A DNA stretch of 59,367 nt, filler included, from Thelocarpon superellum (taxonomy: Eukaryota), in NCBI GenBank assembly GCA_026025795.1. It is 2 parts of 2 records of this genome, joined end to end, with 100 filler letters (N's around TTAATTAATTAA, not from the genome) between each part and the next. Parts side by side here need not be neighbours in the genome. Positions count along the whole stretch, not along the records: positions 1 to 29,638 come from JAPEUG010000215.1; 1 more part is not named here. One strand, written 5' to 3'. Below are positions 1 to 29,738 of this stretch, piece by piece. Positions within the stretch are counted from its first letter, which is position 1, and every line of letters begins with the position of its first letter. Both the position numbers and the translations under genes were made by a program. The notes below the pieces were generated by a model. The model was not told where the DNA came from and made no database searches. It worked only from the letters and a program-made list of their open reading frames with translations.

Positions 1-1341
1 CGTCCCGTCTCTCGTATCCGAGTATGACAGGCAACGAGATTATCGTCAATGCCACCCCGTCCGCAACATGATTGGACATAGTGACGACGTGCTCAGCCTC
101 CTTGAACTCCTCCGCGGAGATCACTGGGAATGCAGATGCGGCATCAATTCTGAGGCACTTGTTGCCTGTCCTCACACGGGTCCACGTTGCGAGCGATAAT
201 GAGGCACAGTAAACATCAGGATTACCCGCTCCACAGCGACTTCCGATTGTTCGGATTGCGCAGAAGCGTGGCTGTGTCAGCAAACACTCTGCTCGCCTCT
301 GCCATGTACTCGTGTGCTCAGGCCGACTACTTATCGCGGCTGTAGCCCCCACCAACCGGCTTCTCTGCTCAAAAGGCGGCAACGGTGTGGCACAGCCATC
401 GTCCAAACCGGTAAGATATCTGGTGGAAAAGGAGAAGATGGAAGAGACCTTTCGTGGCAGAGGCCAGACAGGTCTGGTTGCCTCTGACGGATGAAGATTC
501 TTGAGGGATCTTGACTCTGCTAGTGTAGTTATCATGTTGGTGCCCAACAGTGCTGGCCGACCGGCAAGACAACACCGCCGGCTTCGACGAGAGCGAGGTG
601 CGGTCATTTCTTGGCGCACTGCACGTGGCGCGGCTGCGCTTGAAAGGATGCCTCTCTCGTGGGAACGAGCACAGCGCCCGACCCAAAAAAGCGGCGAACC
701 CCGAGCGGGTTCGGTTGCAGTTCTGAAGACCACAATTCCAACCACCACGACGCAAACACATGTTACTATCGTAGACGGTAGGCTAGTCGAATATTGGGCC
801 TTCTTCCTGGCCGAATAGAAGTTCAATTTTACGTTGTTGGGTTGCTGTGTCGCTGTCGTGGCCAGGGTCATGGGTGTCAGAACTGCAGCCAGAACCGGTA
901 TGGCATTTTCGCTTTCTTGTTGGGCACGTGCGAATTTGACTTGTGCAAAGTACTTCGCACGAGCACGAGTGCCGGTACTCGTACTGAGTAACATACTCCT
1001 AGTACGACTAGGTGCAGTTTCTAGAAATGAGACCATGAGAGAGTTACCCAAGTCCCTGCAGACTTATCGCGGTGCTTGCCGCAGACCTTTACCCCGCTCC
1101 ACCATCATCTCTTCATTTGCCGACAAGCATGACACCCTGTGCCGAAGCTGGATAGCAGTTCTTCGTTCTTTGGTAAAGACAGTATTGTGGTACCCAGTAC
1201 TACCCTGAATATACTCTCTCTCCACTTCCAAGACCGAGCGGCCATCCGCTGCTCCCTCACGCTCACATGGCCCACGTCATCATTGGCGGCGAGAATAGTG
1301 CTTGAGGGCGCCGGTCAAACTCCTACTGATTCTACTACCTC

Positions 1342-1789
1342 TTATGACTCATCGTAACTGGCACAGTCGATCTACTTGGACCAGCGGAGGCCGAATCCAC
1401 CTACAGCCCGCGCTCCTGGAACAAGCTGTGGTCAACTGGAGCCCTTCTAGAGGCCATCAGGTGCTTACCTCTGGATGGGTGTCGATGGCCCCTCTTACTC
1501 GGGCCCGTCGTTGTACGACCACATCGATCGACTGGACGCACCGTCGACCTCGACACCACGCTCCTGCACCTGTTCCTTCTCGGGCTCGTCCTTGTACGAC
1601 CACATCGATCAAGTGGACGCCACGTCAACCTCGACGCCACGATCCTAGTGAAAGTCAGTCGCGGCTCAGATCCACTCCTCTCGCAGGAATGACCGACATC
1701 GAGTTTCTTGTCCGCTGTGGTCGTGGGTGCCGCATGAACACCGGCAGCGGCAAGCCCAGCCAGAATGAAAGGATTTGCGTCGGCTTCAT
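1342..1789 (-). pseudogene. Repeat-containing secreted peptide precursor (putative dikaritin/KEP-type RiPP precursor), disrupted
   Basis: Manual minus-strand reading. ATG at 1789 gives MKPTQIL, then a 1-nt deletion in a T run (~1769), then FILAGLAAAGVHA-APTTTADKKLD (signal peptide + pro region). Intron 1697-1645 (GTCGGT..CTGAC..TAG). Exon 2 reads DRGVEVDVAST*SMWSYKDEPEKEQVQ / ERGVEVDGASSRSMWSYNDGPE*. Intron 1468-1416 (GTAAGC..CAG) precedes a degenerate third unit, ERGL*VDSASAGPSRS..SYDES*. Adjacent to DUF3328 genes. Confidence 0.8.
1498..1644 (-). repeat. 81-bp (27-codon) tandem repeat, ~1.8 copies, plus a degenerate third copy at ~1342-1415
   Basis: Plus-strand TTGTACGACCACATCGATC occurs at ~1511 and ~1592, 81 bp apart, and the surrounding sequence also aligns (..TGGACGC..GTC.ACCTCGAC.CCACG). 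Confidence 0.9.
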
Positions 1790-1897
1790 CGTAAGGTTGG
1801 AAGGACTTCTTCTGATTCGATGTTCTCAAGTGGTCAGAAAGGCTCGTCGATGAGATGCTCGATGGGGTTTCGAAGATGGTTGAGAGATGAGGAGACC

Positions 1898-1903
1898 TTT
1901 ATA
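1898..1903 (-). promoter_or_regulatory. Candidate TATA box of the precursor gene
   Basis: Minus-strand TATAAA ~110 nt upstream of ATG 1789, followed by a C/A/T-rich leader ending ACGATG. Confidence 0.5.
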
Positions 1904-2526
1904 CCGTCGACGGACGACTTGGGAGGCACCCCGCCGCGCCCTACATACAGCATCCTTTCTCCCTGAGATTCCTTGACGGCATCCACTACGTACTCAAGAC
2001 GTCTTCGCGGTCATGCCAGTTTCTGAACGGTACGTTGGGCTTCTCCAATTGCTCCGTCTCATCTCACCAACGGTTCTCGGACTTCCGAGGTTGGTGCGGA
2101 AGTCCCATCTGCTCGAGACGTTTCCACGAGGGCTATCGTGGTACCATCCTCCCGTCATCTAAGCTGCGAAATGGCTGTGCCCCTTCAGCAAGACGGCGGG
2201 GTTTCGCCGAGTGCCAGTCGCCGGTCAGACTGGACGGAGCTGACCGACCTGTCTTTTTGCACGCGCCACACCGCCCTTACCACTCCTGGACGCTTCTCCG
2301 CGCGCGCCGGACGAACCAAAACCACTCTCTGTTACCGGAGACGAACGAGACGTACCCGTTGATGTAGGACCATGCAGGGTCCGAGAGATGGCCGAGACAC
2401 ATTCTCCGTGACCGTGTTGATTTCCAAGTCTCCAACTCCAAACCTACAATCGGTTTGGGAGCGCTACTCCATTGACTCTGGTGTCATGCACGCGATGATT
2501 TTCTACTATAGCAACATTCCACGAAT

Positions 2527-3429
2527 TCATGACATGTCCAAGGGATCATCGAGGGCATGGACTTCAAAGTCAAAATCGCCCAACAGACGGTTGTCCATGC
2601 CCCATTGCCGAATCTTGTCGCGATCACGACAAGTGTGCGCGATCTGAGCAATCTCCTTGGTGCGCTTACTGCTCTCGTCCCACTCCCATACGAGAACGGA
2701 GACGTCCGCATTACACATGAGGTTCTGGCGGATGGTGTCGATGCAGTGGTCGATGTGCTCCATGCCTAAGAGCTCGTGGTCGCCAGGATACTGCACGGTG
2801 GCATACATGGCTTGACGCACCATGTTGAGGCAGTGGAGCTGGTGGAAGACGGACAGGCCGACGATATAATGACCAGGATCCTTGGGGATCCGTACGGTTT
2901 TGTTGACCAGTTGGGCGGCATGCGCGTTGGGATGCGACTGATACCATCTGGACAGCGGGCGCTGGTTGGCAGGTGCAAGCAAGAAAGGGTCAGATGCTGC
3001 AACGTCACTCACGGTTCTAGAGCGCCTCACAAGCAGCGTTGTTCGCGTCGTTGGGCTTTCCTTGGTAGATGGTCTTGTCTCCCGTAAAACTGCCAGCGAA
3101 AACCTTGATCTCATACTCCACTGCATCGTTTGCCGGCGCCATCACCGCGATTCCAGGTCAGCAGGTCAGTGCCTGGGCGTGTCGAGCCATCCGCGGAGCG
3201 ATCGGAACTCACAATAGGTCAAGAACGGGTTATGCCGCGGCTGCACCAAGTGATCATTTACGAGGCCGGCTAGGAGCAGGGCCACTTAAATCCAAGGCCG
3301 CACCACGAAGAGGTACCGCAGGATCTGGGTCCTGCGGTGGCGACGAGGCGCATATTCAATCAAATCCGGCGCTTTCTTCTCTAGGGAATCAAACGATGAA
3401 TGATCTTCGGGCAGCAGATTGTGCGACAT
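2527..3429 (-). pseudogene. DUF3328/UstYa-family RiPP oxidase, disrupted
   Basis: Both HxxHC motifs are intact (VFHQLHCL; EHIDHCIDTIRQNLMCNAD), plus HTCRD..IRQW. Upstream exons: MSHNLLPEDH..ILRYLFVVRPWI*VALLLAGL (TM segment, TAA at 3288-3286), and YSPANDAVEYEIKVF..YQGKPNDANNAACEAL*N (TAG at 3019-3017). A frameshift lies between GISRIP and AAQLVNKT (~2920). Confidence 0.88.
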
Positions 3430-3719
3430 GATTGTTCGGGAACGGGGAGGAAGGACGAAAGAAAGAAGGAAGTTTGGTATGAACGGCAGTCACACCAGCA
3501 CACCCGGTTAAGCTGCCCTACGGGCATGGGGCGGTGTCTTCATATGAGCCCCTACGGCTCGCCCGCTGCCGCTTTTGTCTCAGCCAAACTGCTCTCGAGC
3601 CTAGCTGCACCAACAAGTCCGTGTGTTGTGTCTTCCCACATTCACTGGCATTGATGGCAGCACGGAGACAGGTCAGCCGCAAGGGCCCAAGGTCCACTCA
3701 TCAAGTTCCTTCCGTCAAG

Positions 3720-4410
3720 ATGTGGTCCAAGCTCTGCTACGCGCTGCCAAGAGCCGCCGGACTTGGCGCACGGATGGAGAAGGAGACACTAAAGCCTCCC
3801 GATGAGAGCTCGTCAGCGCCATAGGTGCGTTGCGTCAGAGATAGACATTGGACATTCCGTGGTCGTTGCGCTACTGCTACTCCTGCTGCTGCTTCGTCGT
3901 GCTTGTGCCCTTGCGCAGGTCACGCTGAAGCGTGATGGCGCCGTCATTAGTCTTACTGGACCTCCTTCAGGCAAGGAGCGGTAAGTACGTCCTTTATCTG
4001 TCCAACAAAGATGTATATGTCTCCTCTACCTTGCCGTTTCCACGGTCATCGCGAGGCTGGCAAAGGCGCGCGAGCGGGACAGATCGTGAATTGCTCTTCG
4101 TTGCCACCTTGTTCTCGGGGCAAAGCTGTCAAGAGAAGGCGGTAGATGCAGAGAAGTCGCAGAGCATCGCTGACTGAGCGACCCATGCAGGCTCCTGTAC
4201 GTGTCTACCACATAACAGCTGACCTTGGTCAGCTTTCTCGTGGTAAACTCCAGTATCTTGCCTGATGGACTGCAGCGCGTTGTAGCCACGCGATGTAGCT
4301 TGCTTAGTCACTCGCTTGCCTGCATTCCCCCTGTCCTGCGGATTTAAATTCCCCGAGTGGGGAGGTACTTTAGAAGGCATTGATATTTGCAGGACCTCAT
4401 GTATCATGCC
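3720..4410 (+). pseudogene. Probable heavily eroded third DUF3328/UstYa gene
   Basis: MWSKLCYAL..EKETL N-terminus, then a frameshifted hydrophobic stretch (SVVVALLLLLLLLRR) and a GTAAGT donor. VYHI.. at 4203 is followed by an intron ending CTGATGGACTGCAG, a position like that after HQLxCL in the neighbouring gene. GIDI-QDLMYHA at 4376-4410 resembles CIDxLRQxLMCHA. Confidence 0.4.
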
Positions 4411-5019
4411 TGTCAGAATCGAGGATCAGCCATGACGTTCGATACGGCCCCGGTCGGACCACGTCGCGGCAGTTTGAGACAATTCCGAAGATTCAAGCTA
4501 CGCATCATCGGGTGGCAGAAGGAAGCTGCGAGGATGACAGCGCGCGAACGGGTCTACGCCAAAAGGAGGATGTGATCCCATCCCGCGCGGTACGGGCCGA
4601 AGGATGCCGTGAGGACAGACACCACCGGCCGTCTCGTACTTAGATAAGCTTAAGTTGGAGGTCCAGCGTGATTCGAAATCTCACCGTCTCGGTGACCGCT
4701 CTCCTCTCCGTGAGGCTTGTACCGACGCCTTCGCAGAATCACTGCCGTCTGTGAAACGTATTTACGACTTCGTCGAAACATGTTTAGCTATCCCAACGAG
4801 GGCCCAGGATATGCCTCTGTTTCCCCTTTGGACCTCGGGTCTCCCTCGGGGATCCAGCGAGGCCCCGGGTCGTGCTGGCTTCCATCTTGTAGAGTTGTGT
4901 CATGACCATCTCCATGGCTTGAGTCTATCTACCTTCTTTGCTTCTCTCGTATGTGACGTACCGCTCTGGCCGTGACCACCTGATCCCGCCGATCCTCATC
5001 CTCATCCCCCAAGTTGCGC

Positions 5020-6090
5020 ATGTCCATTGAAGATGTCGACTTGTCCTCCAATAGAAGCGAGAGCGGAGAGTCTCTGCTCAAGGGCGCGCCCTCCGTCGAC
5101 GAGCCGAGTCCGGCTCGGCCTCGTTCTTGCGGGAGACACGGCGTCTGGTTTACCCATGGCGCCTCACTACTCGTCTCCTTCGTGACCCTCCTCGCTGGCT
5201 TCAATGGTCTTGTGCAGGAGTCAACCCGCGAACTGGAACAGTGTTTATCAGCGGAGCGAAACCCCCTGGACCTAATACCTCATGCATATGGTACGTGTCG
5301 ATGTTCCCAAACGTCACCATCTGCCATCGTGCTGATCGAGCGGCTGGTGGACGGCGCCGGTATGGGGTGCGATCGAGTACGAGCGGTCCGGTTTCAGCTC
5401 TCGCCGACCAAGCCTACGGCGTACTACGGACCGGCCAACCCAGCCCTCGATTTTGAGTGGCACGGCATTGCTCAACGTGAGTCTCATCGGCATCTACGGT
5501 CCATTCGCGTCCTACTCAAATATTACGTGTAGATGAATTGTCACGATCGACGCGCACGACGTGGCCAGTCTGAACCAGTCCTCTGCGGCGCCATGGGAAG
5601 CCAGCATGCATGGCGAGACTCGATATCTGGCGGGCATTGAGATGTTTCATCAACTCAACTGTCTGGTATGTCCACATCACCACCTACCCTCTCGACCTTT
5701 CATCACTGCCAATCTGACTGATGAACTGCAGGATTTCATCCGCCGGTACATGTACAAGGACGAGTACTTCCAGGACCTCGACCTCAAGGACGACGAAGAT
5801 GTTCTGATCCAGAAACAAGGTATGTCCAACGCCATGCAGCGCCGCCAGATACAGGCTTTGTGAACCGATCTAACGCGGGGGGCCGCTCGTACACAGACCA
5901 ATGCGTCGATCATCTTCAACAGGTCATCATGTGCCATGGCGACGTGGGAATCATCACCTATCAGGAGCGAGCGGGGGGGTCCAAGTCCAACGCGAAGGCC
6001 AGCGATAACTACGTCCCGGAGTACTCGACCAGGCATCCGTGCAGAACGTGGGATCCGATGGTCGAGTGGGCGGACATTCACAGCATATAG
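5020..6090 (+). pseudogene. DUF3328/UstYa-family protein with degenerate His motifs, frameshifted
   Basis: N-terminal TM segment (VWFTHGASLLVSFVTLLAGF), APVWGAIEYE, YYGPANPALDFEWHGI, YLAGIEMFHQLNCL, DFIRRYMY, KQDQCVDHLQQVIMCHGDVGIITY, HPCRTWDPMVEWA. Four introns, with apparent 1-nt deletions at ~5383 and ~5535. Confidence 0.82.
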
Positions 6091-6226
6091 CCTCGACAGT
6101 GCCATCCCTACGGACCATAGTGTTGTCTGTATCTTATCCACCTGTGTCACTGAATGATTGCAATGCATCCACTTGGGCAGATTCCTTCCGAATTGTAACG
6201 TACATGGGAGTGGAAAGACAGGTGGA

Positions 6227-7255
6227 TCAAGAAGACGGAGGATCAATGCGAGGGCCAGCAGAGCGGTACGATCGATTGATGTACATCAATCCCTCCGGCC
6301 CCTGCTCCATCCGCTGATGCTCCAGCACGGAACCCTCGTCAACCGAGGCTGGCGCGGACCGGGATGAGGATGGAGACGGAGACGGAGACGAGATGGCCAG
6401 GACGCGCGCCACGACAATGACATGGTCGTTGACGTGCCAGCCCTCGAGGCCTTCCATCTGACACTTCAGGCTTGCCACAAGACTCTCCGAGCCCGTCAAG
6501 TCTGTTGGCGTCGTCTTCCCACCGCTTCGCAACCCGCTGAAGTGTCGCGCGAGGGCTGCCCCGTCGAGCGTGCTCGCGGGAAAATGGATGTAGAAGGGCT
6601 GGGAGGGGTACAGGGTGATGCTATCGTAGGTGGATGAGGGAAGTCGCACGTTGAATGTGACGAGTGGTACCGGGTGCAGCGAGAGGGTGGTGAAGGTCGA
6701 TAGAGTCATGCCGGGAGGCTTCTTGATCGTGGAATGGGAATCGGCGCGGTCTGGAACTGGGTCGGTGGTCAGGATGGTCACGGACGACGGCATGCGGCGC
6801 ATGAGATGTCGAAGGGTGGAAGAGAGGGGGCGGGGGTTCGGCGAGTCAACCAGGTCGTGTCGAATCCCAGAGGGCTTGTTCTTGAAGGGGGACCCTCGTG
6901 ATGCTGCGGCTGGACCGTTGCGCCATGAGGGGTCGACTCGACGGATCTGTAATCCATGCTTGGGGTTTGTGAATGGTGGACCTCGTTTGGTTCGGGATAC
7001 TTTGTGGATGGTTGGCCCATCGTCGGACGCGGGAAGGATCGAGATACGGGACCGCCCTGTGTAGAGTGATCAGCATGACGTATGGAGCTGCCGTACGAAG
7101 TCAGAGTGGAAGTCGTGTGCAATACCTGGTGAGTGGGTCAACTGAAAGGCGCGAGTCCATTGGCGAAAGAGGGAGAAGAATTGTCGCGAGCGGAGAGTTC
7201 CCGCATGCGAGACTAAGGTGACCGATGCGGTCCGTGGCAGATATGAGGGAGGCAT
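6227..7255 (-). CDS. Flavin reductase-like domain oxidoreductase, probably mitochondrial
   Basis: LRHLMRRMPSSVTILTT..GMTLSTFTTLSLHPVPLVTFNVRLPS..NDHVIVVARV fits the Flavin_Reduct pattern. A 69-nt intron (7125-7057) removes the TGA and joins an Arg/Ser-rich presequence-like exon 1. Confidence 0.75.
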
Positions 7256-8030: not shown

Positions 8031-8363
8031 GGGTGAGGATGAGGGTGGGATGTGGTCCGAATCGTGAGCAGGAGGCCCTGGGCGTCTAGAAGTTGGCCTT
8101 GGTTTCAATATCTAGTTCCACCATTCCATGTATCCATTGTCTATACCATATCCATGTCTACTTCACACTCTTTTCGTGATGCACACGCATGAGTAACAGA
8201 GTAGGACACTACGAATTTACTCATCCGCATGATCTAGAGCCACAGCCAGCTCTTTGGCGGAGAATCTTGGATGCGGCATGGAGGATGTTTATACGAGCGC
8301 AAGGCAGCGGTGTAGAGTACAAGGACGTGACAATCTGCCTCCTCCCTCCCCCGCTCCTCCCTC

Positions 8364-12921: not shown

Positions 12922-13302
12922 GGCGAGGCCAGGCGGGGCGGAGGGGCCGGGAGCCGCGAGTCATGGAAGGCGAGGCGCACGAGTCCCCGCTGTCGCTGAC
13001 GATGAGGGGAATGGGGAGGAGGAAGGAGAAGGGTCAGTTCCGCGACTCCATCACGGCGACGTAAATGACTGCCATTTCGTGCTCGTCGTTTGGCCTGCGT
13101 CGAGGGTAGGCATGGGGTGGCGTCTCTTGACGGCAGATGGAGGACGATTGGCCCAAGCTTGATTGGTGCACTCACACCTGGTGGCCGGCGCGCAGGTCCC
13201 GCCAGAGAAAATCCGGGGGTGCTCCCGTTGTTTGAAAAACCACTACTGTGGGCCGCCGTAGCGACCTTTCGGCATCGCGTGCCACGGTACCACGACACGG
13301 TA

Positions 13303-15318
13303 GGAGTAGCTACGGTCAATTCTGTACAACCACCAATTCTGTACAGAATCGGGGTCAGGAGGCCTACAGATCAGATTGACAATGCAATTGCAAAGTAGAT
13401 ACATTAGATAGCTAGGAGAGAAGGGTCTATAGACTGGTAACTTGATTCAAAGTTGTTTTGATCCAATTAGGCCACTTCTTCATCATCTGTAGCCTCTAAT
13501 ATCACTTCTGTCCCTATTGTCTGACTTGCTTGTTGGCTATTCAAGGCCTCTTCCTTCACTGCCTTAACCTCTAGCTGACACTTCTTGCACTTGTCCTTCA
13601 CAATTGACACCTGTAGCTTAAGATCCTGTCATTGCTAGCATTGACCTTCCTAGTTCTGCCATTGTACAACCTCTTCCTCATGTTCTAGCTCTTTCTGTCA
13701 AATGAGCTCCTGTGCTTCCTTGACACAGAGCAACCCTCCACACTGTAGAACAGTCTGGCAACATGTGGAACATTGCACCCATTCCTTGATTGACTGGCAG
13801 AGGTTGTCCAGCTCTGATTCCATCAGTATTGCACATGACATCAACTGCTCAGTGCTCTGTACAAGCTTCAGCAACACCTCTGGAAGGTGAGGGATGTTGT
13901 CAACAGGTTCCACAGCCAGTAGCAAGGCCTCTGTGTGTTGTTTGATCTGCTGTAGTGTTGTAGGGGTCTAGAGTAGTAGGGTGGAAGGGCCATTGTTGTT
14001 GTTGTCATTGTCATTAATCAGAGGTGTAGCAGGTCACAAGGCCTTATTCAATTGCTGCAGTATAATGTCTGGTTTGTATAGCATGATGCCTGTCTTCTAG
14101 AAGGCCAACTTCACATTTGATTTGGTGAAAGCTTGCTAGCAAACACATAGCAGGATTGACAGGAATTGCACCTTGTCAATAGCCTTGTTGCCACATCACA
14201 CAGCATCGTCAACAGCACAGGTGTAGTAGTGCTTGTAGGGCTAGAAGCAACTGACATCCAACAGCTGCAGTAGGTGGCTCATATAGGGTAGTAGGCAAAC
14301 CAGGATGATATCAAGGTCCCAGGCCTTAATCACAAAGTCTAGGGTGACATGACTACCATAGCCATCTATCAGTAGCAGTCGATATCAGCCATGGGCGCTA
14401 TCCTTCATGAAGTGGTTGAATATCGATTCAAGCTATTCAATGGCAATGGTGTCTATGGTCTAGCCCTTGGGTGATGTTGCTATCATCCAGTTGCTTGGAA
14501 GGTTGGCCTTGTGCAAATACCATGTTGCAGGGTGTTGTTGGCTAGGCATGATGATTAGCAGAGGCAGAATAGAGCCATCAGATCAGATACACTCAACAGC
14601 TGTTATCCATGTACAGGTGCCAGGCTGTGTCACCAATGCCTGGTGCTTCTTTGAGCCAGAATGGCAGACAACTCTCATACATCTAGCAACACCACTGAGG
14701 AAGCCTGTCTTGTCAACATTCCATATGTCATCCTCTACAACACCATACTCCTATATGATGTCCTGGAATTGCTGAAACCACCTGTTGACATGGTTCCTGT
14801 CAGTACAGTTGGCACATATGCTATCCAGAGGTTGACTTGGTGTTGTCATATACTCCAGATGACACTTGACAAAGCGATTGGCCCAATTGATGCCAACAGA
14901 TGGTGTGGTGTTGTCTTCTGTATGATTCGACTTGGTGAGGAGCTTGTTGGCATATCCACAGATGATATCCAGCTGTGGAGGAAAGCTGGCCCTGATCAAC
15001 CAATTGATTGACACCTTGAGTGCTTCCTCCTGAGGTCTCGAGAGCTTCTGATTGTGCCCACTGTTCAGAGCCCACAGTTGGTCACCATTGGCACATCCTA
15101 GGAGCTGGCAGTAAGGAGTGTGGTAATAGGCTGCAGCCTGGCGAAGGGATGTGAATTGACCTGTGTTATACACGTCATAGGCCTCCTGGATGAGGCTCTC
15201 AGAGTCTTGAGCTGATTGCTCCATTCTGTGTGGCATGGTGGTTGATCCTAGGTCACCGCGGGGGGTTCACGATGCTGTACGGAATTGGTGGTTGTACGGA
15301 ATTGACCGTAGCTACTCC
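13303..15318 (-). mobile_element. Fot1/pogo-type (Tc1/mariner superfamily) DNA transposon, full length but mutated
   Basis: 44-bp TIRs (GGAGTAGCTACGGTCAATTCYGTACAACCACCAATTCYGTACAG) at 13303-13346 and 15275-15318 contain an internal direct repeat and are flanked by TA (13301-2, 15319-20). The interior is AT-richer than the flanks and holds a transposase remnant. Confidence 0.92.
13450..15236 (-). pseudogene. DDE_1 (pogo/Fot1) transposase with multiple in-frame stops
   Basis: N-terminal HTH region SLRQAAAYYHTPY..LSRPQEEAL..VGINWANRFVK. Catalytic region LLIDGYGSHVT..LLPYMSHLLQLLDVSCF*PYK at ~14230-14375. 3' end approximate. Confidence 0.88.
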
Positions 15319-15431
15319 TACCACGAAGTGGCGGTCCACGGTCGCGTCACGCGCCCTACAAGCTTGTACGAGCACTCCCGTACCTCTTGAACCCGGCACT
15401 TTTTGCCCTCGGGTTGGAGTAAGAGGCAGTC

Positions 15432-16842
15432 ATGAACCATGTATCGTCCGCCTTGTCGAGACATCTTGCGCGTCGTCGAGCTGGTCAAAGAATACACTGG
15501 ACATGTCTACGATGTCGAACTTTCTCCTTCCACACCTCGGTCGAGCGTGGGGTCATCCGTGGTAAGACTGGTGTACGACGTCCGTCGCAGGAGATCAAAC
15601 GGCTAATGGTCAATTAAAGAGCACGATGCGGTGATCCTTCGACGAGACTCGAACCCCAATGCACCTTCACAATTTATTCCAAAATTGGAAGAAGACGGGC
15701 AGTTTCACTCGCATCGAGGATACATTCGACACGCAGATATCATTGGAAAAGGGGTCCGGGAGGTAGTGGAGACCACTCAGGGTAATTTGGTTTGGCGATA
15801 TGATAGTCCAGGTCTGGACTAACATTGCGTTATACAGGGAAGAGATATAGGATCCATGTTCCCACGTTGGCAGAATATGTGACATTGAGACGACGGCACG
15901 TCACGCCCGTAAGAATTCCCACAATTCTATGATTGACCAGATCGTTCATCTTTCCAGATCTACCCCGCCGACGCCAACCTGATCGTCTCTCTTCTGGACA
16001 TTCACGCCGACCGCTCCATTCGTGATGACAAGCTGGAGATCCTCGAAGCAGGCACGGGCCAAGGATCGCTCACCCTCCATCTCGCACGAGCCATCCACGG
16101 CGCGAATCCACCAACACCGTACATCCCCGAGGTGCCCCATGCCGACGATGGTGGCGCCACCGCCGCCGCCGTCCAATCCACGGAATACACCGAGTGGCGT
16201 CAGAGCCGCAATGCCATCATCCACAGCGTGGAAGTGTCACCGAAATACTCATACCTGGCACGACACGTAGTCTATGGCTTCCGACACGGGCTTTACTACC
16301 CCGACGTCGACTTCCACACAAGCGACGTCTCACAATGGCTCGACACCCATGCGAATTTGCACGGGAGAAACACGGCGGCCTTTCTGAGCCATGCAATCCT
16401 GGATCTACCATCCAGCGAGCTCCATCTGCCGCGCGTCGCACAGGCACTGCACCCCGACGGGGCTCTCCTGACCTTCAACCCCAGCATCACACAGGTCATG
16501 GCGTGCGCGGCGCACGTCAAGGCCGAGTCGCTCCCGCTTGTGCTGGCGCGCGTGCTCGAGCTGGGTAACAATGCGGCCAGTGGGGGCCGGGACTGGGATG
16601 TTCGCGTCGTTACGCCTAGGGCTACCCTGAAGGCACAAGAGAAGCTGAGGGATGAAGAGGGCCGAGAGGGGGAGGAGAAAGAGGGGGTAGATGAAGGCGG
16701 GGGAGAGGGAGAATGTGTTGGAGTGGAAGAGCAAGATACCCGCCATAGCTGGAAGACCATTTGCCGCCCAAAAGTAGGCGAGCGTATAGTAGGAGGGGGC
16801 TTCGTAGGACTATGGCGTAAGACGAGAGAGAGAGAGAGATGA
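15432..16842 (+). CDS. TRM61: tRNA (adenine-N1)-methyltransferase catalytic subunit, Trm61/GCD14 family, probably mitochondrial
   Basis: HRGYIRHADIIGK, PTLAEYV, VTP/IYPADANLIVSLLDI, ILEAGTGQGSLTLHLARA, AILDLP, FNPSITQ; three introns; Arg-rich presequence-like N-terminus. Confidence 0.85.
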
Positions 16843-29638: not shown

Positions 29639-29738
29639 NNNNNNNNNNNNNNNNNNNNNNNNNNNNNNNNNNNNNNNNNNNNTTAATTAATTAANNNNNN
29701 NNNNNNNNNNNNNNNNNNNNNNNNNNNNNNNNNNNNNN
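29639..29738. other. Artificial contig-join linker (N44-TTAATTAATTAA-N44)
   Basis: A palindromic 12-mer with stops in all six frames, embedded in symmetrical N runs. Confidence 0.97.

What the first reader, a model, noticed from the sequence alone, without database searches (positions are those of the whole stretch)
1342..6090. Compact dikaritin-type cluster (precursor + 2-3 UstYa genes) that appears to be decaying as a unit
Seen: within 4.7 kb there is a repeat precursor, a canonical DUF3328 gene, a divergently oriented relic and a second DUF3328 gene. Each has independent lesions: stops at 1611-1609, 1403-1401, 3288-3286 and 3019-3017, and frameshifts near 1769, 2920, 5383 and 5535. I noticed no such lesions in the housekeeping genes from 6227 onward. 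Inference: a once-functional peptide natural-product pathway lost in this lineage, with an intact version likely in relatives. The cluster may extend left of the window.
Basis: partly seen in the sequence, partly recalled or inferred. Interest (0 to 1): 0.8.

Follow-up and report, generated by a model that had tools for sequence, protein, structure and literature searches.

The report
Dead fungal cyclic-peptide gene cluster
A small fungal genome carries the broken remains of three neighbouring genes that most likely once made a ring-shaped peptide; this is an ordinary kind of gene cluster, lost here, whose peptide sequence matched nothing we could search.

Summary
Real, and ordinary in kind. 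Window 1342-6090 holds a three-exon repeat precursor gene (core-like SMWSY twice) and two UstYa/DUF3328 genes (PF11807 E 5e-33; 2e-23). All 8 reported lesions are present, and I found 3 more plus one probable: a further stop, and a missing AG acceptor in the first intron of both enzymes. The second enzyme has also lost 3 of 4 copper-binding histidines. Contigs of the probable source run (depth 130-170) agree with the assembly, and contigs from another study (moss metagenomes) share 3 of the 4 frameshifts but lack one stop. So the cluster is dead in the population, not mis-assembled. Three first-reader points fail or stay open: the middle 'relic' scores at background in three tests; the cluster does not extend left (the overlapping contig holds housekeeping genes); no intact orthologue was found. 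The architecture is common, and intact clusters of the same layout with other cores turned up in metagenomes. What is mildly unusual: the repeats lack dibasic Kex2 sites, and the assembly shows no polyketide synthase and only one NRPS locus. New, dead member of a known kind; interest 0.27.

The parts
1342..1789 (-). Gene A: broken multicore precursor. Exons 1789-1698, 1644-1469, 1425-1342. Signal-peptide-like start, then two 27-residue units each with the core-like stretch SMWSY and a third, more diverged unit. Breaks: frame break about 1770; stops 1611-1609, 1497-1495, 1403-1401; probable frame break near 1363.
   Evidence: run X1 contigs 750-1746 and 1717-2317 identical to the assembly
1645..1697 (-). 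Gene A intron 1 (53 nt, GT-AG, branch site at -14)
1426..1468 (-). Gene A intron 2 (43 nt, GT-AG, branch site at -10)
2527..3429 (-). Gene B: broken UstYa/DUF3328 oxidase, about 255 codons, exons 3429-3213, 3138-3013, 2947-2527. Both HxxHC motifs kept (HQLHC 2844-2830, HIDHC 2757-2743). Breaks: stop 3288-3286, intron-1 acceptor lacks AG (3140-3139), stop 3019-3017, frame break about 2926.
   Evidence: PF11807 E 5.4e-33 last exon, 0.0026 middle exon; 55% to A. terreus EAU31769.1 over the last exon; X1 contig 2469-3534 identical
3430..5019 (.). No homology detected; two faint motif echoes on + (about 4388-4417 and 4462-4490) are not above chance. Two 1-base indels segregate between X1 haplotypes at 4237 and 4340.
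   Evidence: table 4
5020..6090 (+). Gene D: broken UstYa/DUF3328 homologue, about 270 codons, five exons (introns 5291-5354, 5477-5532, 5666-5731, 5820-5896), 29% identical to gene B. Breaks: intron-1 acceptor lacks AG (5353-5354), frame breaks about 5384 and 5535. Motifs read HQLNC (5648-5662) and KQDQC: 3 of 4 histidines absent.
   Evidence: PF11807 E 4.8e-8 and 1.3e-11 for two pieces, 1.6e-23 for the stored 113-aa 3' product P0024; X1 contig 5394-6693 identical
6227..7069 (-). Right boundary, not part of the cluster as far as tested: open flavin-reductase-like frame, followed by bL31m (MRPL36) and VPS5
   Evidence: PF01613 E 1.2e-16, PF21492, PF09325
1..127 (+). Left boundary: exact 127-base overlap with the end of contig G000:C164, which carries TAF5, Med11 and other housekeeping genes

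Best explanation
A minimal fungal RiPP cluster of the UstYa/DUF3328 (dikaritin-like) type, one secreted multicore precursor plus two membrane-anchored copper oxidases, that lost function before the sampled strains diverged and is now drifting neutrally. Shown: gene identities, 11 disabling lesions (plus 1 probable) in about 1.9 kb of former coding sequence, their presence in the source data, and sharing of three frameshifts with another study's samples. Inferred from the family: when alive, the precursor entered the ER by its signal peptide, was cut in the Golgi after single arginines (V-Q-E-R, F-Q-E-R) by a Kex2-type protease, and the DUF3328 dimers oxidatively cross-linked the aromatic residues of the short S-M-W-S-Y core (Tyr, perhaps Trp) into a small ring, as AprY does for asperipin-2a, without a clustered tyrosinase, peptidase or transporter. 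Today nothing can be made: the precursor's frame breaks at codon 7, and both enzymes break upstream of their copper motifs. The stop count suggests about 6-8% neutral divergence since loss (wide interval, 2-18%), more than the 1-3% seen between samples. The loss fits a 19-Mb assembly that is poor in secondary-metabolism genes generally.
For: PF11807 hits; conserved intron position and exon sequence match intact homologues; gene B keeps 26 of 30 columns invariant in six homologues; its best named hit EAU31769.1 is three accession numbers from EAU31766.1, a catalogued repeat precursor marked 'DUF3328 in vicinity'; intact precursor + two-UstYa clusters with other cores in L004/L006/L007 and L010; X1 contigs identical over the lesions, X2/X3 contigs gap-free across 1770, 2926 and 5384 while the codon at 1611-1609 is sense there; no RIP-like composition; no KS-AT gene, one NRPS locus, no S41 peptidase in G000; HxxHC His/Cys are essential in CctR (PMC12435403, passages).
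Against: No orthologous intact precursor was found, so the core boundaries, cleavage sites and ring chemistry are inferred only. The repeat exons contain no dibasic site, a usual feature of these precursors. DUF3328 genes also serve non-ribosomal pathways (CctR), so the enzyme-precursor link rests on adjacency. Gene D's heavier motif loss with no in-frame stop does not fit a single clean date of loss. X1 is probably the assembly's own source, and all runs are contigs, which drop rare alleles. X2 and X3 share identical contigs and count once.
Confidence: 0.88

Rival explanations
1. Staggered loss: gene D died first, or was a naturally non-catalytic partner, and a precursor + gene B pair went on working like the one-enzyme asperipin-2a cluster before it too was lost.
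For: Gene D lacks 3 of 4 motif histidines and the motif-adjacent arginine (19 of 30 invariant columns kept), gene B lacks none of the histidines (26 of 30); the third precursor unit is far more diverged than units 1 and 2 and lies behind the stop at 1497-1495.
Against: Gene D has no in-frame stop in about 270 codons; it belongs to a different subfamily (22-29% identity to the comparison set), so column loss partly reflects old divergence; no close homologue of D was found to calibrate.
Confidence: 0.35
2. The lesions are assembly or sequencing errors and the cluster is intact.
For: All four frame breaks are one base short, a pattern that indel-prone sequencing can give.
Against: X1 contigs at depth 130-156 are letter-identical across 7 of 8 reported lesions; contigs of another study keep the same length across three frame breaks; neighbours read normally.
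Confidence: 0.02
3. The genes are cryptically functional through stop-codon recoding by RNA editing (recalled from sexual-stage A-to-I editing in some ascomycetes) or unusual splicing at the two GG acceptors.
For: Both enzymes lack AG at the same homologous intron, an odd coincidence.
Against: Base editing cannot mend frame breaks, and each of the three genes has at least one, upstream of its functional part; other introns viewed end in AG; gene D's metal ligands are gone.
Confidence: 0.02
4. Gene A was an unmodified repeat peptide (pheromone- or propeptide-like) unrelated to the two DUF3328 genes, which were orphans.
For: No dibasic sites, only two well-kept units, no homologue.
Against: It lies 0.74 kb from gene B, the only two PF11807 genes detected in 19 Mb are here, the core holds Tyr, and DUF3328 genes peak next to precursor genes (PMC7329392 section 7).
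Confidence: 0.08
5. The 3.6-4.8 kb spacer is a third, much older UstYa relic.
For: By eye, two short + strand stretches near 4388-4490 resemble the family's C-terminal motifs in the right order, and a hydrophobic run lies near 3860-3900.
Against: No PF11807 match in six frames read through stops; tblastn at noise level; frameshift- and intron-aware profile score 15-24 bits against 98-253 for genes B and D and 15-18 mean, 20-23 maximum for shuffles.
Confidence: 0.2

Closest known systems
Asperipin-2a cluster of Aspergillus flavus (aprA, aprY, aprR, aprT)
   Same: Compact cluster; short aromatic-rich core (FYYTGY) cyclised by a DUF3328 enzyme with no tyrosinase (PMC6514808, passages).
   Different: Here two DUF3328 genes, no transporter or isoflavone-reductase gene detected, a different core (SMWSY), and all genes broken.
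Ustiloxin (ustA, ustYa, ustYb, ustQ) and phomopsin clusters, the founding dikaritins
   Same: Signal peptide + repeated Tyr-containing cores + more than one DUF3328 gene.
   Different: No KR-flanked repeats, 2-3 units instead of 8-16, no clustered tyrosinase, S41 peptidase, methyltransferase or regulator; core unrelated to YAIG.
Epichloecyclin cluster (gigA, gigB, gigC, kexB)
   Same: Small precursor + DUF3328 cluster in a plant-associated ascomycete (PMC10540207, passages).
   Different: No clustered methyltransferase or kexin; different core; dead.
KEP catalogue of Umemura 2020 (7878 precursors, 1758 with a DUF3328 gene nearby), e.g. A. terreus EAU31766.1 (type 552) near EAU31769.1
   Same: Gene B's best named homologue lies beside such a precursor; L004 and L010 show the same precursor + two-UstYa layout intact.
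   Different: Gene A would fail the catalogue's filter (three or more repeats between KR/KK/RK/RR sites). Whether type 552 resembles gene A could not be seen: the table lists accessions, not sequences.

Membership tests
UstYa/DUF3328 (PF11807) | Profile match above the curated cut-off (25 bits) | tested here: met
   Gene B last exon 115 bits; gene D pieces 33.6 and 45.2 bits, stored 3' product 84.2 bits
UstYa/DUF3328 (PF11807) | Two HxxHC copper motifs | tested here: met
   Gene B only: HQLHC and HIDHC
UstYa/DUF3328 (PF11807) | Two HxxHC copper motifs in gene D | tested here: not met
   HQLNC and KQDQC, 3 of 4 His absent; decay or a natural variant cannot be told apart
UstYa/DUF3328 (PF11807) | N-terminal membrane anchor before the catalytic domain | tested here: inconclusive
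   Hydrophobic stretch at the aligned position in both genes by eye; no predictor run
UstYa/DUF3328 (PF11807) | Profile match for the middle 'relic' | tested here: not met
Dikaritin-type RiPP cluster | DUF3328 gene(s) next to a repeat precursor gene | tested here: met
   Gene A ends 0.74 kb from gene B; only PF11807 locus detected in G000 (3 of 3 matches)
Dikaritin-type RiPP cluster | Precursor with ER signal peptide | tested here: inconclusive
   Hydrophobic core (mean hydropathy up to 2.4 over 9 residues) followed by A-A-P, in the frame after the break at about 1770; SignalP not available
Dikaritin-type RiPP cluster | Repeated cores containing Tyr | tested here: met
   SMWSY twice, third unit ends in SY
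Dikaritin-type RiPP cluster | Cyclic product made by the DUF3328 enzyme | not testable with these tools
   No product can be expected from this allele; needs an intact orthologue and LC-MS
Ustiloxin/phomopsin subtype | Clustered tyrosinase (UstQ/PhomQ) and S41 peptidase | tested here: not met
   Tyrosinases lie on other contigs, C285 and C95; no S41 match in G000; none in 27 kb to the left or among 51 long frames to the right
KEP (Umemura 2020 definition) | Three or more repeats between KR/KK/RK/RR sites | tested here: not met
   One KK in the pro-region, none in the repeat exons; VQER and FQER precede units 2 and 3. These fit the wider Kex2 motif (P1 Arg, P2 Glu tolerated, aliphatic P4) in PMC8528282 (passages)

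The most novel reading that the evidence does not exclude
Gene A is the fossil of an undescribed family of DUF3328-modified peptides with a Trp/Tyr core (SMWSY) whose precursors are cut at single-arginine sites and are therefore missed by dibasic-site mining; living copies would persist in related moss-associated ascomycetes and yield a new small macrocycle, possibly with a Trp cross-link. It would also be the last trace of peptide natural-product chemistry in a fungus that has shed its polyketide synthases.
Probability: 0.22. Interest if true: 0.55.

Novelty: new member of a known kind. Interest (0 to 1): 0.27.

Why it matters
Modestly. It is a clean snapshot of gene-cluster death: shared frameshifts fixed across samples, one stop still private, in a fungus whose 19-Mb assembly shows almost no secondary-metabolism backbone genes. 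It is also a reminder that precursor mining restricted to dibasic sites and intact frames overlooks some DUF3328-linked cores. It does not reveal new chemistry by itself, because the pathway is dead and no living orthologue was found.

Tried and rejected
Third UstYa in the spacer: Pfam on six read-through frames, tblastn with up to 22 stored UstYa homologue sequences and with genes B, D and six homologues, and two home-made frameshift/intron-aware aligners with five penalty settings in all gave background scores; the profile was small (9 full sequences plus exon fragments) and leaned to gene B's subfamily, so a very old relic is not excluded. In one search the natural-tile control was inflated by coding-sequence codon bias (mean 25-28 bits), so the shuffles are the fair control there. 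Left extension: rejected. Precursor relatives: 0 of 17 candidates, only itself in G000, no Atlas hit (weak for 37 residues), no motif hit in the Umemura supplements (uninformative because Table S2 lists accessions only, and one supplementary file was not held). Gene D relatives: only its own stored 3' product and one repetitive false hit, 0 of 23. Metagenome scan with gene B: 9 loci from 189 stretches, 33-38% identity for the long matches, none orthologous; a short SYKD-like match in L004 was non-coding noise. No PDB relative of gene B. RIP as the cause: no signal (TpA/ApT 0.56). Weak ketosynthase hit on C534: reads as a thiolase by eye. No RNA holder listed: no evidence either way on expression. 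One exon of gene B was read in the wrong frame and variant 1718 in the wrong frame; both were redone, whose numbers are used. Literature: no paper on this core in a search for SMWSY/MWSY with DUF3328/UstYa (three unrelated string hits), one paper holding 'pseudogen', DUF3328 and RiPP, none in the listing that treats monobasic sites in DUF3328-linked precursors by title or abstract start; the library lacks most subscription journals.
Full report
Setting. The window is fungal: GT-AG introns with CTRAC-type branch sites, and RNA polymerase III largest subunit closer to yeast than to human. Places 1-29638 are the whole start of contig G000:C130 of a 19.15-Mb, 797-contig assembly. Runs that hold part of the locus include three moss metagenomes; laid on the window they are 97-99% identical over their listed pieces (19 differences in 1918 bases for X2, 32 in 1149 for X4), so the organism or a very close relative occurs on moss. 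I did not place it in a class.

The observation. Gene A (minus, 1789-1342) has a hydrophobic start, two introns and an 81-base repeat that encodes SMWSY twice; a third, more diverged unit follows the second intron. Gene B (minus, 3429-2527) matches PF11807 at E 5.4e-33 and gene D (plus, 5020-6090) at 4.8e-8 and 1.3e-11. These are the only PF11807 matches in the assembly (3 of 3). I add a stop at 1497-1495, a probable frame break near 1363, and loss of the AG acceptor in intron 1 of both enzymes; at the homologous intron, 4 of 4 intact metagenome loci inspected (two of them near-identical) end in YAG. Gene B keeps both HxxHC motifs; gene D reads HQLNC and KQDQC. In CctR, changing these His and Cys residues abolishes activity (PMC12435403, passages).

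Are the lesions real? Yes. Run X1, probably the assembly's source and so not independent, has contigs 750-1746, 1717-2317, 2469-3534 and 5394-6693 at depth 130-156 with no other letter and no gap; they span 7 of the 8 reported lesions. The X1 piece over 5384 is among the 114 not listed, but the indel table has no row there. X2 and X3, from another study, share identical contigs and count as one sample: their pieces 1530-1822/1848, 2556-2959 and 5332-5482 have the same length as the assembly, so the breaks at 1770, 2926 (33 bases from the contig end) and 5384 are shared, whereas the codon at 1611-1609 is a sense codon there. These contigs have depth 2-4 and contigs drop rare alleles, so a rare intact haplotype is not excluded. 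About 3.5% of single-base changes in these 1870 bases would create a stop; 4-5 stops give 6-8% divergence since loss (95% range 2-18%), above the 1-3% between samples. Composition shows no RIP. Neighbouring housekeeping genes read normally where checked; I did not model every gene.

What did not hold. The 'relic' in 3600-4800 gave no Pfam match in six read-through frames, noise in tblastn, and 15-24 bits in a frameshift- and intron-aware profile alignment where genes B and D score 196-253 and 98-130 and shuffles reach 20-23. Two motif-like echoes remain visible by eye, so I leave 20% for a very old relic. The cluster does not extend left: contig C164 overlaps window 1-127 exactly, and 134 frames over its 27.4 kb gave TAF5, Med11, DUF7729, Afi1, EF-hand, C2H2, amidotransferase and Rpb6 domains but no tyrosinase, peptidase, transporter or UstYa (frames under 75-110 residues were not scanned). 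No intact orthologue was found.

How it worked. By family knowledge: the precursor is secreted into the ER, cut in the Golgi by a Kex2-type protease, and DUF3328 enzymes cross-link Tyr side chains of the cores (PMC9233826 and PMC6514808, passages); DUF3328 proteins are membrane-anchored, dimeric, binuclear copper oxidases (PMC12435403). With no clustered tyrosinase or S41 peptidase the closest model is asperipin-2a. The repeat exons have no dibasic site; VQER and FQER precede units 2 and 3 and fit the wider Kex2 motif (PMC8528282, passages). Four subtilisin-family loci exist in the assembly; I did not identify which is Kex2. Core limits, cleavage and ring chemistry are inference. Gene B's best named relative, A. 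terreus EAU31769.1 (55% over the last exon, 42% overall for its cluster member P0008), is three accession numbers from a catalogued precursor with DUF3328 nearby (PMC7329392 Table S2, search hits), which supports a ribosomal-peptide role for this subfamily.

Context and comparison. 1758 of 7878 catalogued repeat precursors have a DUF3328 gene nearby, 1.7 on average (PMC7329392, abstract and sections 7 and 13), and my own metagenome scan returned intact precursor + two-UstYa clusters with other cores (L004/L006/L007, one locus type; L010). Pseudogenisation of fungal clusters is common: 23 of 33 clusters in A. fumigatus showed at least one event (as cited in PMC6941272, passages). PMC12048977 (passages) treats DUF3328 with two HxxHC motifs as the class marker. 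The assembly is poor in secondary-metabolism genes: ketosynthase matches at three loci, none beside an acyltransferase domain except the fatty-acid-synthase-like pair on C290, one NRPS locus (4 of 4 condensation matches on C161), 23 P450 matches. Completeness of the assembly is unknown, so these are lower bounds.

Verdict. A real, population-wide pseudogenised precursor + two-DUF3328 cluster. It works like the asperipin-type dikaritin clusters; membership is met for the enzymes and the layout, not met for the dibasic-site KEP definition and the ustiloxin/phomopsin accessory genes, and untestable for the product. New, dead member of a known kind. Interest 0.27; the boldest reading left open, a single-arginine-processed SMWSY peptide family alive in relatives, has about 0.22 probability and would deserve 0.55.

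Noticed in passing
window 3140-3139 and 5353-5354: Both enzymes have lost the acceptor of the same homologous intron in the same way (GG for AG, 23 bases after a branch-like site), although they are only 29% identical. Probably coincidence at about 6% decay, but unexplained.
   Followed up: partly
window 2318-2421, 4237-4357, 8086-8164: Run X1 holds two haplotypes at about 2:1 depth, locally up to 7 differences in 104 bases; several minor alleles match the moss-metagenome runs X2/X3.
   Followed up: no
L019:7250-9308 (G000:C164, minus): An apparently open, intron-containing orphan gene between TAF5 and the cluster; no Pfam match and no Atlas hit.
   Followed up: partly
window 2-1063 (minus): 354-codon open frame without a Pfam match next to the precursor; may be chance or an orphan.
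   Followed up: partly
window 13000-16000: Low-GC island (0.49) with a Tc5/pogo-type transposase relic on the minus strand (PF03221, E 3e-4) carrying several in-frame stops.
   Followed up: partly
G000 whole assembly: No KS-AT polyketide synthase detected, one NRPS locus, no S41 peptidase: a strikingly small secondary-metabolism set for a filamentous ascomycete, if the assembly is complete.
   Followed up: partly
L004:5500-6155 and L010:2953-3530: Intact repeat precursors between two UstYa genes in metagenome contigs, with Trp-rich (WANWNW) and Tyr/His-rich (VYVHGSYGY) cores and dibasic sites; not checked against known compounds.
   Followed up: no
window 9275-9226: The VPS5 intron ends in GAG rather than the usual YAG.
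   Followed up: no
window 29639-29738: Two runs of 44 N mark a join; the rest of the window lies off contig C130.
   Followed up: no
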